This document shows, one piece after another, positions 1 through 39,700 of a DNA stretch of 64,000 nucleotides. This stretch comes from Fimbriosthenelais zetlandica (lineage: Eukaryota): positions 27,342,001-27,406,000 of the forward strand of contig OZ365110.1 of NCBI GenBank assembly GCA_977030845.1, given 5' to 3'. Made by a program: the position numbers. How positions within the stretch are numbered: position 1 is the first letter of the stretch; every line of letters starts with the position of its first letter.

Positions 1-3000
1 GTAAGTACATGTATAGTAACTAAGCAGTTTTACGAATCTCATAAAATGTGTGGTCTTAATAATGAGAGATGGTCACACGCTATTAGACCTATTAAGACGC
101 CTATTTCTTACAGTGTATAAGATACACCCTGAAGCATTTGGCTTTGCCTCTGTATACCCACTGAAGTGTGAAAAAGTGGTCAGTGTGGTGGCAACATGAT
201 AGGCTGTGGCCCCTCTAGATCCCCTCATGTCTGTGCTCTGTATGATTGCCTTATATGCCCCCAGATATGGACACATTCAGCACTGGGGTCATAAGAAGTG
301 GCTAGCCTACAGCTGTAAGCCACTTTTCAATGGCTTCATTCCACTCCTCTCAGCCCCTGCATACTCCTACACCTACATTAGTACTGGACTAAAAATGTGC
401 TACCTCTTTGCGAAGGAATTCTATGTTATCCCAAATAACTGTTGTCAAACGCTATTTGATCAATAAATTTAATTGTAGCTTCCAACAGACTAGTTGAATC
501 TTCAGAATTGGTCTGTACAACAGGGAAGTTTGATTAGAAAAAAGGACCCATTTTTGCGTTTCCATGGTTTGGTTAGTGGACCATGGAAGAGCTGCTCTTT
601 GTTAGTACGTGGCGTGGCTTTTGTTTTTGTCAATAGGAGACTTAGACTGAAGTCCCCGTTAATGCCACTAAGTTCAGCATGATTGATCGCCACTGCAGGA
701 CTCTGGTGATTTGTAAATGCCAGTTTGTTAAGGGTTTGCTTTTCATGGGCCCATGGAGATATGAAAAGGCTCTGCTTCTATCTGAAAGTGCAGAAATATT
801 ACTGAGGTGTATGCCACTTTTTTTCTTAGTAGATTCAAAAGATCTGCCTTGATGAATGCTACTTGTATATATATATATATATATATATATATTCCCGGAC
901 CAGTTTGGCAAGGATATTGATGTACAGAGATAGAAAAACAACTTAATTATTAAATATTATACATCCACCTATTCACAGCGTGTTAGGTCGTATGTTAGTT
1001 GGCAGCATGCTTGTCTGACTTTTAGGGTGAGGTTATTTGTAGCCGTGACATATATTCCCATGGCTGGCGCTGCCTCACAAATCCCAAGCACTCCCTAGAG
1101 TCCACTCTGACCGTTCTCTGAATAGTAAATAATATCTGCTTGTCATAGCCACATGTTTTAACTCTTGCTCACAGAGCCTATCTTGTGGCTGAGTGTGTTT
1201 CTTTATATTAATCGTTCATCCCGAAGCAGAGACGTGTCTTTTCTTTCATTATGTGGCGAAGTCCCTACTTTACAGCAACCGCAAAGCTTGCACAGCAAAG
1301 CTTTGAATTCCGGAATGGTCAGGAAATTAAGACTTTCTTACTATTTTCCAACAAGAATTCACAGTACTTTTGTAGCCTCCGAAGCGTTAGTTTGCTTGTC
1401 AATTTACCTGGAATTGATAGAATTGCAATCAGTTCGGAGATAAGAAAATGATTTCACTGCTTGCCGGGCAGTCCTCAGTTGTATCCCCATTGTCGCCCCC
1501 AACTCCAACTGTATCTTTATGGCTGTGGACCTTTACAGCCCTGCTGATTTGGCCTCCAATTACCCCGGTCGGCAGAGAGTGAGAAGGTGTTGTGGGTCAT
1601 GAAAGGTCTGGTGCCTGGACCATCTATATTAGTGGCTACATTTCCCACCTCCACATATGCTGATAGCAATCCAGAGGGGAGCTGCTCCACTGGTTTGTGG
1701 GAGAGCATCACGATGCTATTATTGCATTGGAAGTCGTTCAGCTCGTGTCCCAGGGTGCTCGGTAAGGGATTGTAAAGATTAGTGCAGCAGATGAGATGCA
1801 TACAAGTATCTATCAAATCTATCTCAACACTCGTATTTGGCTGATTGCTGCGTGATGGACTTTGGATCTGGATCTGGCTTTGTGTGTGTATCCTAAGCTT
1901 TAAATTCAGTTATGCAATACAGTTTCTAACTCTGCAGTTAATTCCAATAACTTTGACCTGTAAGGAAGGTGTCTCTTTAATTTGAATATACATTGCATGA
2001 GAATTCGTGTATGGAATGCCATCCTGATATAATGGCCCCTATATATTTCATTTCTATTATAGAGCCCTGGGGTCGAGTTCCTGCACAAAAGTTTAGTTTT
2101 TACATTCATGTCCTATGCTAAAGCCCTTGTTAAATAATTCACATAATCTCATTGACTCGCCCTCACATCTTGAGGTGGACAGTCGCCAAATCCTATTACT
2201 GCCCCAAACACTATTTCTAGGACCCTTACACCAGTGCTTTCATGGTCGGAACGAGGGCTTTTACCAGCTCGAGGGATCCCATACTAACATAAAAAGACTG
2301 CCTCTAGTTCACTGACTCCATTTCACATTCATATCACTGGTTGACTATGTCCTTCATTTGGCTACATAGTGCAGATAACCAACTTTTAGGAGGGAGAAAA
2401 CAGCTGGTATTTCTGGCCAACTGCACATCTTTACTCCTCCTGTTTATGTTGTGATGGAGAAGAAATTTTCCTTTGGTTTATTGCCTAAATATATGGGTGA
2501 CAAGGCTACGTCTTTTGCCCATTGCTGCACTATCCCGACCGATGGAAATTCCAATGTAAACGATGCCAGTTTTCATCATGATTAACTCCCAAACAAGTAG
2601 CGAGTTCATAGTAAAGTCATCATCTCATGATGTATTCGCCTTATTAAGTCCACCCGACCTCTATACTCAATCAGCCGGCACAGAATTAATGAGGCAACAA
2701 CATCCTTATCTTTCTGTATTATACGTGAATCTTATTTATGTGTGCGACACTCCTGTTTAAGGAGTCAACCAGACCCATGTTTATAGACCCTGACCCTTGC
2801 AAGTTTGCAATTCAGTTCTATCGTGAAAGGATCTCTAGTAATTCGGCTGAACATTCGGAAATTTATATTCAATCCACAATAGATGGACTACTGTTTAAGG
2901 ATCTATATACAAATTAATTCATGTGTCCCTTTAATGTCCGCCATTGAAGGTTTGTTGAACATTGTTTCGAATGTGACATTTGATAGCTTTCATTGCCTGC

Positions 3001-36700: not shown

Positions 36701-39700
36701 GAATGTTTTTATTGCGACTTGGGAGCCTGAATGGTGAGGTATGGAAATTGGTGACGACTGGCGCTTCCTTTGCTACTTACTACTCTCGACATCTCCTATT
36801 CATCTTGGAACGTGTTCCTATTACAGTATTTAATTGTATATAAAATATTGTTTTTCGTACGTCCTGTTGGTCTTGCATCTGGATCTGCTGCCCTTACAGA
36901 TTACTACGTCCTCTCTCATCATTTTATAAACCTCTGTTCCACTGTATCATTAGCTTTAATCAAGTCTCCAATGTTCTTGCGGAATTTTCTTCTCTATCTG
37001 TCCGTGTCAGTTTGCTTAACTTGTATCTGTCTCTTTGCTCGTTTACTGTATCTTAATTATTACCTCATTTCTGCCTGTCCATGTATCTGTCTCCTTCCCT
37101 CATCACCTCCACTGATGATTGATATCAATCCCTATCCCCACCCCTCCATTTTCCTTCAAATCCCACTTCATTTGCTTCGAGTATTAATTTGTCTCAGATC
37201 CAATTATGGCCATTGAATGTTTCCATTAAAGAAGGCGCAAGAGACGATAATGATATCTGTTGGACACAGAGCCTTCCATCAAGCACTTAAAATCTAATTC
37301 GATTAATTTATTTGGATAAGTGAGGCATAGCACGCATACCATTTTAAACATGAAAATGACGAGAAACTTTGGAGAAAAAGTCAAGAGTAAAGAATCCATC
37401 ACGCCAGGTTATTCTGCTAGCCATCCTCCCGATGCTCAGGTGGGCTGATGCTTATAGCTCAGATTCATGCAGGAAGTCTAGTCTAGCATTTTTATCTGCT
37501 TCACAGTTAATATGATACATCCCAGACAATACTCTTTTAACATAATTAGTAAATGGCTGGTCCATATACTACCATTACCTCCGAGAAAGTATTGATATTC
37601 ATAGATGAGATATTTCGGATGCATATTCACTGCATGTGAGAATCCTCTTGCACCTGAAATTTGACCATGGAAAAAGTGCGTATTCGGAGGTTGCGCCTCA
37701 TGCAATTCTATCTTGTGAAACATTTGTCTTGCAAGACAAAGTGTATTAGTCATTAACATTCATCCTTCAGCCATGTAATTAATGGTAATGGCTGGCCTAC
37801 TGCCATTCATTCCCCGCGTGGAAGACTCGGGTTTTTGGAAGGCTTGCTCCCTGTCTTAAGATTTAAGCAGGCCCACTATGATTGATGGTGGCCCATCTGA
37901 CTTGGTATTCTTCCACGTCAGTTTCTTCTAATTAGTCTCTCACTCGTTACTAATTGAGTGCATGGGAAGCTGTGAGGTGTTTGCACCCAGGAGGGTTTCT
38001 CGTGTTACATTGGTCATTCATTACAAGCATTCTGTCACATTCAGTCCCTCGGGTGACAGTCCTTATATAGTGTCTTAGCTTAATTTGTTTCTGAGGGAGA
38101 TACAAGTTATGTAACACAAATTTATGCCTGCTCAGCTATTCAGCAGTTTTCAGTGCTAAAACCTTCAATATCAACCTCATCCCCATATTTACAATCCACA
38201 CTTCATTTCATCATCATATTTGTAATATTAAATCAGTGTTCAATATAAAAACCGTGTCAGACATGTTTCGAAGCAATTTCCAAAGTGATTAATTAATTAA
38301 TGAGATTTTTTTGTTCTAAGGTTGTAACAATGAGGAGGAAGACAAAAAACTAGTCAGGCTCAACAAAAATGGACACACACGATTCTATGGGTTCTGGGAA
38401 ATAATTAAGTCAATGGCGAAAACCTTGTTAACGGATATTACTTGCTTCAGCTTAATTTGACGCATATTGAATATCAATTACAAAAGTGTAAGTTTCTGTA
38501 AAATTATTTCGTTTATCTTTCAGGTTGTCGTAACGCACTCTCGGCCGTAACACAGTCACAAAGAGCCGATTCCCAATCAGGCCGCCAAGGGAAAAGTGGC
38601 TCCAAACAAAAGCAGACAACGTCCAGATCCCGAGTACAGACCAATAGCAAGAAAAAAGGCGAGAAAATTCGAGAATCGCCCGAAGATCATCTGGCAGCAA
38701 TAGGTGGAAGAGACACGTCTTTGTTTTTGTTCAGAGCATTGGGAAAAATTCTCTACTGCAAACGTAAGTATTAGGCCTATTTATCTTTCCCTTTAGTCTT
38801 TTTGGTAAAACTGGAATTTAAATTAGTAAAGTTTGAATGAAGTACAATTTATATATAAGTTGTTCAATTCTCCTAGCATTCCCCAAATTTGCCTCCAACC
38901 ACCCCACCCCCAAGATAGTACTAACTGGTTTGTGAGCCATGCCTTGAATTGTCTATAAGTGTAGTGTAAAAGAACCATTGCTGCCATCATGTACCAACAA
39001 TGTGTTTCCTACTTGTTGAGTTTACTCGCCCAGAGACAGTCTAAGAAATGCTGACTGGACGTGAAGCATCTGTTCACCCGCCCTCAAGCTCGCACATTAC
39101 TAAAGCTTGAATCAAATATTTAGACTGATCACTGCACATCGCTCACTGCACATTGTGCCGGATTCGCTGGAGAGACCCTTGGCCTTTAGATCTCCATGGC
39201 TGAATAGCCACTGCCTTGTATCTGTCTACCACGCTTCTAAGGTACATTGCACAGCCTTATCACTGCCTGAAGATAGGCTCCCCAGGGCATAACATGGATG
39301 CCCACAATTGTCTGTTAAATCCAGATCCTTTTACCCCATCAGACACACACCTTCCAACCGCCAGCCCAGGTATAATGACCAACATTTATAGATGAATCAT
39401 AATATAATGAATCATAATGAAACCGCGAATAGATGAAGCTCTATGACTGATTTCTGTATTATGTTTCCCAGCAAGTTATATGAGTATAATTTGGTAACAT
39501 TTTTATCCTCGATGAGTCAAACTTGCGTTTCTTTTGTCATAACCTTGCACAGGGATTAGACTAGCACTCTGCATCATCACGCGAAAGAGTTTAGTAAACA
39601 TGACTACTTCTGATATTGCGTGTTCCATAATGAAGATTTCAATGGAAAACTGGGAAGACAAAACGAGAATTACAATTATGAGTTCTTTAAGTCGAAGAAT

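What the first reader, a model, noticed from the sequence alone, without database searches (positions are those of the whole stretch)
1..38523. Intronless LRR receptor gene apparently nested antisense inside an intron of at least 38.5 kb of the DNA-damage checkpoint gene RAD17
Seen: the first RAD17 exon found (38524) has a phase-1 acceptor and starts mid-protein, just after the AAA+ module. Scanning 1-38523 by eye I found no PWVxKY, LAVHKKK, Walker A GPxGxGKT, VEDLP or GDIRxAINxLQF coding segment. The other seven introns are only 115-4823 nt. Known: RAD17 needs about 340 more N-terminal residues. Inference: the upstream intron spans the whole left 60% of the window and contains the complete minus-strand LRR gene (21833-23959). 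This places a probable immune or adhesion receptor inside a housekeeping checkpoint gene, with convergent transcription and possible co-regulation or interference. The window also opens with a perfect donor GTAAGT at 1-6, which may be this intron's 5' end or chance.
Basis: partly seen in the sequence, partly recalled or inferred. Interest (0 to 1): 0.68.

Follow-up and report, generated by a model that had tools for sequence, protein, structure and literature searches.

The report
LRR receptor gene upstream of RAD17 half
An invertebrate genome stretch holds the back half of the checkpoint gene RAD17 and, 14.5 kb upstream on the other strand, a complete Toll-like-receptor-shaped gene without a signalling domain, which most likely sits in one very long RAD17 intron, an ordinary kind of gene nesting.

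Summary
Eight GT-AG exons at 38524-50563 (+) encode the C-terminal ~328 residues of RAD17. The seven introns between them are 115-4823 nt. The first exon has a phase-1 acceptor and no Met.

A profile of 38 full-length RAD17 proteins finds no N-terminal exon anywhere in the window, on either strand. A leave-one-out control shows that such exons would have been detected.

The ORF at 21833-23959 (-) is a complete 708-aa membrane protein: signal peptide, about 22 LRRs, LRRCT, one transmembrane helix and a 35-aa tail. It has full-length orthologues, and its predicted fold is closest to the TLR3 ectodomain. It has no TIR domain.

It is not proven, because the upstream RAD17 exons lie outside the window. 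No eukaryotic genome or RNA data were on hand to locate them.

Even if true, the arrangement is ordinary. Nested genes are the commonest form of protein-coding overlap, and LRR transmembrane genes nested antisense in long introns are documented (LRRTM in alpha-catenin genes, 2mit in timeless2).

The organism is an invertebrate, mollusc-like, not human. Interest is low.

The parts
1..38523 (+). Putative 3' part of one long RAD17 intron; its 5' end is not in the window.
   Evidence: No RAD17 N-terminal exon here, with a sensitivity control. Of the 365 stop-to-stop ORFs >=45 aa lying wholly in 1-38523 (367 scanned, 1-38771), only the LRR ORF reaches a Pfam curated cut-off. No Rfam family and no internal repeat >=60 nt. 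3-base periodicity peaks only in the LRR ORF.
1..6 (+). GTAAGT hexamer at the window's first bases. It may be a donor or chance.
   Evidence: 35 copies in the window against 26.5 expected. Nothing lies upstream to test it against.
21833..23959 (-). Complete single-exon coding sequence (708 aa plus stop) of an LRR-only, TLR3-like type I membrane protein.
   Evidence: ORF. Pfam LRR_8 at 2.3e-70. Orthologues of 698-744 aa at 39-85% identity aligned over the whole length. AlphaFold2 mean pLDDT 86.7. Best PDB fold is TLR3, TM-score 0.64.
24272..24278 (-). TATAAAT, a candidate TATA box about 313 nt upstream of the LRR start codon. Inference only.
   Evidence: Read.
21136..21141 (-). AATAAA, a candidate polyadenylation signal about 690 nt after the LRR stop. 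Inference only.
   Evidence: Read. The implied transcript size is compatible with the 2979-nt contig of orthologue P0048.
38524..38763 (+). RAD17 exon: end of the AAA+ lid, a basic linker and the GGRDTSLFLFRALGKILYCK block. Phase 1 in, phase 1 out.
   Evidence: (E 1.4e-21).
42033..42121 (+). RAD17 exon
   Evidence: (E 4.6e-5).
43785..43931 (+). RAD17 exon (helical bundle)
   Evidence: (E 5e-22).
48755..48907 (+). RAD17 exon
   Evidence: (E 3.1e-18).
49025..49064 (+). RAD17 mini-exon of 40 nt
   Evidence: (weak, E 7.6). It is supported by phase continuity and canonical splice sites.
49267..49356 (+). RAD17 exon
   Evidence: (E 0.005).
50222..50276 (+). RAD17 exon of 55 nt
   Evidence: (weak, E 3.1).
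50392..50563 (+). RAD17 last coding exon with stop TAA. AATAAA follows at 50641-50646.
   Evidence: (E 3e-4).

Best explanation
The window comes from an invertebrate genome, a lophotrochozoan and probably mollusc-like; it is not human. It covers the 3' half of the single RAD17 (Rad24-type checkpoint clamp-loader subunit) gene on the + strand. The exons for the N-terminal ~340 residues (P-loop domain and most of the lid) lie upstream of the window. The intron that ends at 38523 is therefore at least 38.5 kb long, at least 8 times the largest of the other seven introns.

Inside that stretch, on the opposite strand, lies an independent transcription unit of about 3.1 kb (roughly 24.3 to 21.1 kb). 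Its single coding exon makes an LRR-only, TLR3-shaped type I membrane protein with a short, highly conserved cytoplasmic tail.

Shown: the exon map, the absence of N-terminal exons from the window, and the completeness and conservation of the LRR gene. Inferred: that the missing exons are upstream on the same strand, which is what makes this a nesting. The two genes are most likely functionally unrelated. This would be the usual passive outcome of a small gene sitting in, or moving into, a long intron. Any interference between the two transcripts is unproven.
For: - The first exon cannot start a protein. It has a phase-1 acceptor and no Met, and a stop lies 22 nt upstream in frame. Yet its last 28 residues are identical in the relative's ORF P0001 and conserved across RAD17 proteins.
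- All 8 exons are open, and all 7 introns are GT-AG with matching phases. This looks like a working gene part, not a decayed fragment.
- No N-terminal exon lies in the window on either strand. The control recovered most exon-sized fragments.
- Nothing else gene-like turned up in 1-38523. Among the 365 ORFs >=45 aa lying wholly in it (367 scanned to 38771), only the LRR ORF reached a curated Pfam cut-off. There was no Rfam hit, and no 3-base periodicity peak outside the LRR ORF and the last RAD17 exon.
- There is no N and no composition break in the window.
- The LRR gene is real. Orthologues of 698-744 aa align end to end, some on 2-3.5 kb transcript-sized contigs and some on Mb-sized contigs.
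- Precedent, from abstracts read: nested genes are the commonest protein-coding overlap, typically short genes in long introns (PMC5174743). [quoted passage not shown] The LRR transmembrane gene 2mit lies antisense in intron 11 of timeless2, a chromosome-stability gene (PMC3786989).
Against: - The upstream RAD17 exons were not seen. The window ends before them, so host exons flank the LRR gene on one side only.
- The T>A strand bias of 1-21 kb and 24-38.5 kb equals that of the proven RAD17 introns. It also equals that of the 13 kb downstream of RAD17, so it does not mark transcription of this stretch.
- I looked for linkage in relatives by comparing contig lengths. No contig was shared between a RAD17-exon ORF and an LRR orthologue: P0001 is on a 1,797,035-nt contig and P0049 on a 2,752,028-nt contig, and none of the 27 short hits matched. 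This is uninformative if the records come from different species. If they come from one assembly, it would speak against conserved tight linkage.
- Pfam alone is insensitive to single exons. None of the 6 RAD17 exons tested scored, so unrelated small exons in the 38.5 kb cannot be excluded.
Confidence: 0.7

Rival explanations
1. The RAD17 piece is served by an unrecognised first exon inside 24-38.5 kb: an alternative promoter giving a truncated isoform, or a partial duplicate of RAD17. On this reading the LRR gene is simply the upstream neighbour in divergent orientation, and it is not nested.
For: The window shows only the 3' half. A non-homologous short first exon would escape every search used here; Pfam missed even the true RAD17 exons. 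The first two residues after the acceptor differ from the relative's ORF P0001 (CRNALSAV against CSDITAAV), so this edge is not strongly constrained.
Against: A protein without the P-loop and most of the lid could not act as a clamp-loader subunit (established knowledge of RFC-like loaders). All eight exons are nevertheless intact, with conserved motifs. No other RAD17-like sequence is in the window. No periodicity or ORF signal was seen in 24-38.5 kb.
Confidence: 0.15
2. An assembly artefact or a real rearrangement (mis-join, inversion or translocation) has separated the two halves of RAD17. On this reading the left 38.5 kb is unrelated intergenic DNA.
For: The intron would be at least 8 times longer than any other in the gene. 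The window alone cannot show continuity with the 5' exons.
Against: The 64 kb holds no N and no gap. There is no jump in GC or skew and no repeat at which a mis-join would be expected. The acceptor at 38523 is intact.
Confidence: 0.1
3. The nesting is real and also functional: the antisense LRR gene and RAD17 regulate each other by transcriptional interference or by shared enhancers in the intron.
For: Transcription would be convergent/antisense if the host reading is right. The Assis 2016 abstract reports expression divergence of nested pairs attributed to interference (PMC5174743). The 2mit paper's abstract proposes an enhancer in the host intron as a constraint (PMC3786989).
Against: No expression data exist for this locus. 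[quoted passage not shown] One listed title reports no expression divergence between nested genes in mammals (PMC8467205, search listing only).
Confidence: 0.05

Closest known systems
Host/nested gene pairs with an LRR transmembrane gene antisense in a long intron: LRRTM1-3 in CTNNA2/1/3 (PMC3933685) and 2mit in Drosophila timeless2 intron 11 (PMC3786989)
   Same: A small LRR type I membrane protein gene on the opposite strand, inside the longest intron of a larger housekeeping-type gene. In the 2mit case the host also works in chromosome stability. (Abstracts read.)
   Different: Here the 5' host exons were not seen, so nesting is inferred. The protein is not shown to be an LRRTM or 2mit orthologue. 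Its only PDB match to an LRRTM is generic LRR similarity over residues 426-604. It has about 22 LRRs and a 35-aa tail.
Toll-like receptor 3 and other single-cysteine-cluster TLR ectodomains; 'LRR-only TLR-like' proteins (term as used in PMC8609888, passages read)
   Same: LRRNT, about 22 LRRs, one LRRCT next to a single transmembrane helix. The best sequence match in the PDB is TLR3 (E 1.7e-39). The best fold match is TLR3, TM-score 0.64 over about 700 columns at 22-23% identity.
   Different: There is no TIR domain. The protein ends 35 residues after the membrane, as do its 10 aligned orthologues. By the criterion quoted in PMC8609888 it is therefore not a TLR. CD180/RP105, LRRC32 and NRROS also appear among the matches; that they are TIR-less with short tails is my recollection, not something tested here.
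RAD17 / Rad24, the checkpoint clamp-loader large subunit
   Same: The eight exons match profile positions 331-654 of a 654-position profile of animal RAD17 proteins. The matches include the GGRDTSLFLFRALGKILYCKR block and the acidic C-terminus.
   Different: The P-loop domain (PF03215) and most of the lid are not in the window.

Membership tests
Nested (intronic) gene pair | Host exons lie on both sides of the nested gene. | not testable with these tools
   Downstream host exons run from 38524 on. Upstream host exons are absent from 1-21832 and must lie outside the window. No eukaryotic genome collection was on hand.
Nested (intronic) gene pair | The nested gene is complete and does not overlap any host exon. 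| tested here: met
   The LRR coding sequence 21833-23959 (-) is full length against its orthologues. The nearest RAD17 exon is 14.5 kb away.
RAD17/Rad24 | Rad17 P-loop (AAA+) domain with a Walker A motif | tested here: not met
   It is not encoded anywhere in the 64 kb. This concerns the window, not the whole gene.
RAD17/Rad24 | C-terminal RAD24-like helical bundle and conserved C-terminal half | tested here: met
   Own profile, positions 331-654, exon E-values down to 5e-22. Pfam PF25812 itself did not score on single exons.
Toll-like receptor | LRR ectodomain with LRRCT plus one transmembrane helix | tested here: met
   Pfam LRR_8 at 2.3e-70. The model has a helix at 646-695 that includes the hydrophobic stretch. 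Fold match to TLR3.
Toll-like receptor | Cytoplasmic TIR domain | tested here: not met
   No TIR match in the protein, nor in any of the 367 ORFs >=45 aa of 1-38771. All 10 aligned orthologues stop at the same short tail or within about 35 residues of it.
LRRTM / 2mit | Orthology to LRRTM or 2mit proteins | not tested
   Only the gene arrangement is compared. The PDB hit to an LRRTM (5a5c_A, E 1.4e-23) is far weaker than the hit to TLR3.

The most novel reading that the evidence does not exclude
The LRR-only, TLR3-shaped protein with the nearly invariant tail LKSLHYRWQ(I/V)RYREVSG..PKV defines an undescribed receptor family of this invertebrate clade. Its residence antisense in the giant RAD17 intron is ancient and conserved, so that expression of an immune-type surface receptor and of a DNA-damage checkpoint gene are mechanically coupled through convergent transcription.
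Probability: 0.04. Interest if true: 0.6.

Novelty: new member of a known kind. Interest (0 to 1): 0.2.

Why it matters
If the nesting holds, it adds one more case to a well-known class: a small single-exon LRR membrane protein gene antisense in a long intron. It would mainly matter for annotation. Gene finders would probably break RAD17 at a 38+ kb intron and call a truncated gene. The related species' record P0001 is no more than a raw ORF around the same exon.

The more interesting by-product is the LRR protein family itself. These are full-length TLR3-like ectodomains without a TIR domain. Their 20-residue cytoplasmic motif stays almost unchanged while the ectodomain drops to 39-50% identity. 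That pattern points to a conserved intracellular partner.

Tried and rejected
- Weak tblastn hits at 1557-1760 (+), to query residues about 210-265 (best E 0.43), and at 12189-12377 (+), to residues about 380-470 (best E 0.029), recurred with several related queries. I rejected them as chance. Identity is about 30%. The queries are not independent of each other. The second hit runs across a position that is an exon junction in the real gene. My profile did not find either, and Pfam found nothing in ORFs 1548-1772 and 12189-12407.
- Sub-threshold Pfam hits (Polyoma_coat at 2481-2624, SpeFL at 7391-7600, Put_DNA-bind_N at 14384-14608) are all below their curated cut-offs. I took them as noise.
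- A possible TIR exon downstream of the LRR ORF: 'REVSG' is not a GTGAGT donor, and no TIR was found in any ORF.
- P0001 as a gene model of a relative: it reads through both the acceptor and the donor, so it is only a genomic ORF and says nothing about gene structure.
Uninformative.
- Strand-skew test: the same T>A bias everywhere. Uninformative.
- The Atlas search gave only generic LRR clusters.
- Pfam found no family at E <= 0.001 in 61 ORFs >=55 aa of 50.5-64 kb and 5 long ORFs inside RAD17 introns. The other 61 of the 127 ORFs >=55 aa listed, all at 38.5-50.6 kb, were not sent.
- (first run of the sensitivity control) returned no answer. I repeated it in lighter form.
- The spliced RAD17 model was searched exon by exon only. 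The joined coding sequence was never made or searched.
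Full report
**What the window is.** The window is 64,000 bases with no N and about 41% G+C throughout. Only two things in it look like genes. It is not human. The RAD17 exon finds its best named relatives in bivalve molluscs, at about 50% identity. 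The LRR protein finds its only close relatives (39-85%) in unnamed invertebrate-type records. Below those it drops to about 27% identity with gastropod, insect and nematode LRR proteins. I take the organism to be a lophotrochozoan, probably mollusc-like. Its own annotation is not in the protein collection.

**The RAD17 part.** I translated the region after 38500, read the splice sites and checked the phases. This gives eight exons on the + strand:
- 38524-38763
- 42033-42121
- 43785-43931
- 48755-48907
- 49025-49064
- 49267-49356
- 50222-50276
- 50392-50563, with TAA at 50561-50563 and AATAAA at 50641-50646

All seven introns are GT-AG. Together the exons encode about 328 residues.

I built a profile from 38 full-length RAD17 proteins returned. 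It places these exons at profile positions 331-654 of 654, with exon E-values from 5e-22 to 3e-4. The two shortest exons score weakly and rest on phase and splice sites.

The first exon aligns to residues 343-421 of the 667-aa Ostrea protein P0002. In P0002, Pfam puts the P-loop domain at 97-278, the lid at 306-353 and the helical bundle at 405-522. The GDIR half is missing, and the exon opens with ..CRNALSAV.

The joined coding sequence was never assembled or searched.

**Is the N-terminal half really absent from 1-38523?** Yes.
- I ran the profile with all filters off against every stop-to-stop ORF of at least 12 aa on both strands (3468 ORFs). It found nothing for positions 1-330 with E below 9.
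- tblastn with 16 RAD17 proteins found only two recurrent weak hits, at 1557-1760 and 12189-12377. I rejected both as chance (reasons are under Tried and rejected).
- Regular expressions for the N-terminal motifs gave 3 hits in six frames, 2 across stop codons and 1 a bare HKKK on the minus strand; none is a RAD17 segment.
- As a power control, I left the Lingula or the Asterias protein out of the profile and cut its first 350 residues into exon-sized pieces. At E<0.01, with the same database size, 8 of 14 and 10 of 14 pieces of 25 aa were recovered. So were 7 of 10 and 9 of 10 pieces of 35 aa, and 6 of 7 and 7 of 7 pieces of 50 aa. The misses were in the poorly conserved first ~100 residues and in short linkers.

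A set of AAA+ exons in the window would therefore have been seen.

**Must there be an upstream exon?** Yes.
- The exon at 38524 follows a good polypyrimidine tract and AG.
- It begins with two bases that complete a codon.
- It contains no methionine.
- The open frame around it starts only 22 nt upstream, after a stop.
- Even so, its last 28 residues are identical to those of the related species' ORF P0001, and they are the most conserved block of the family.

So the exon is translated, and it needs an upstream coding exon with a phase-1 donor.

**What else is in the left 38.5 kb?**
- Pfam on the 367 stop-to-stop ORFs of at least 45 aa that start before 38523 (they span 1-38771; 365 lie wholly in the stretch) gave a hit above curated cut-off only for the LRR ORF. 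Three sub-threshold hits look like noise. No reverse transcriptase, transposase or TIR domain appeared.
- Rfam found nothing at gathering thresholds.
- Self-comparison found no repeat of 60 nt or more in this stretch.
- A 3-base periodicity scan peaked only inside the LRR ORF and at the last RAD17 exon.

These tests are blind to short, unconserved exons. Pfam also missed all six RAD17 exons given to it singly.

**The LRR gene.** The ORF at 21833-23959 (-) encodes 708 residues:
- a hydrophobic N-terminal signal-like helix
- an LRRNT cysteine cluster
- about 22 LRRs
- an LRRCT
- a transmembrane helix
- a 35-residue tail

Ten orthologues of 698-744 aa align with it end to end at 39-85% identity (A1). 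Some sit on contigs of 2.3-3.5 kb, which are transcript-sized. Others sit on contigs of 2.75 and 3.07 Mb. That fits an uninterrupted coding exon in relatives as well. UTR introns cannot be excluded.

The tail YGKVCxRLKSLHYRWQ(I/V)RYREVSG...PKV is almost invariant, while the ectodomain diverges. It occurs in 11 of the 120 listed hits, P0048-P0058.

The AlphaFold2 model has mean pLDDT 86.7 and pTM 0.72. It is closest to TLR3 ectodomains, with Foldseek E 1e-21 and TM-score 0.59-0.64 at 22-23% identity. TLR3 is also the best sequence match in the PDB (E 1.7e-39). There is no TIR domain. By the criterion quoted in PMC8609888 (passages read), the protein is therefore an 'LRR-only TLR-like' protein and not a TLR.

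Candidate signals are a TATAAAT at 24272-24278 and an AATAAA at 21136-21141 on the minus strand. They would give a unit of about 3.1 kb (inference only).

The most likely mechanism is ligand binding by the horseshoe ectodomain, with signalling or trafficking through a partner that reads the conserved tail. This is inferred from conservation and was not tested.

The RAD17 exons for residues 1 to about 340 lie to the left of the window. The intron ending at 38523 is at least 38.5 kb long. The LRR gene lies inside it, antisense. I give this 0.7.

Nothing in the window proves it.
- The strand bias (T over A on the + strand) of the putative intron equals that of the proven introns, but it also equals that of the 13 kb downstream of RAD17.
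- I tried to see whether relatives carry both genes on one contig, using only the contig lengths printed in the tables. No match was found, and this decides nothing.
- The GTAAGT at 1-6 is a hexamer that occurs 35 times in the window.

The rivals are an unrecognised first exon or a partial gene copy (0.15) and a mis-join or rearrangement (0.1). A functional coupling of the two genes (0.05) is a further claim resting on the nested reading, not an alternative to it.

**Comparison with what is known.**
- Nested genes are described as the commonest form of protein-coding overlap, typically short genes in long introns (PMC5174743, abstract).
[quoted passage not shown] The same abstract notes that most of the other nested genes the authors found comprise LRR domains (PMC3933685).
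- In Drosophila, the LRR transmembrane gene 2mit lies antisense in intron 11 of timeless2, a gene involved in chromosomal stability. [quoted passage not shown]
- A full-text search for 'RAD17' together with 'nested gene' found 0 papers. This particular pair is therefore not in the searched library. Most subscription journals are outside that library.

**Verdict.** The arrangement would be a new member of a familiar kind. Interest is low, at 0.2. The by-product most worth a look is the LRR-only TLR3-like family with its invariant tail.

Noticed in passing
window 21833-21940 (-), tail of the LRR protein; proteins P0048-P0058: The cytoplasmic tail LKSLHYRWQ(I/V)RYREVSG..PKV is nearly invariant across orthologues whose ectodomains share only 39-50% identity. 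It is found in 11 of the 120 listed LRR hits. This suggests a conserved intracellular partner. The RxxS and C-terminal PKV look like possible kinase and PDZ-type sites, but that is speculation.
   Followed up: partly
window 48053-48636: A tandem array with 87-, 171- and 261-nt periods, 2-7 copies at 78-86% match, lies inside the 4823-nt RAD17 intron. The long ORF at 47161-47640 beside it is low-complexity (SPPI repeats, 12-nt unit at 47349-47396) and is not a gene.
   Followed up: partly
window 50700-64000: The 13 kb downstream of RAD17 holds no recognisable gene (61 ORFs >=55 aa there, no Pfam family at E <= 0.001). Yet it has the same T>A bias on the + strand as the introns. It may be intron of a further + strand gene, or the bias may be a property of the genome.
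   Followed up: partly
window 23951-23959 (-): The LRR start codon is followed at once by a perfect donor-like ATGGAG|GTGAGT. Orthologue P0048 also starts with ME and aligns collinearly, so the site is probably not used.
   Followed up: no
window 3672-3749 and 49379-49600: A (CT)39 microsatellite, and a 105-nt unit repeated twice in the RAD17 intron after exon 49267-49356.
   Followed up: no
protein P0001 (unnamed ENA record): The closest relative of the first RAD17 exon is a 157-aa raw genomic ORF that reads through both splice sites. Right after the acceptor it has CSDITAAV where the window has CRNALSAV, so the remnant of the lid motif at this exon edge is not conserved between close relatives.
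   Followed up: no
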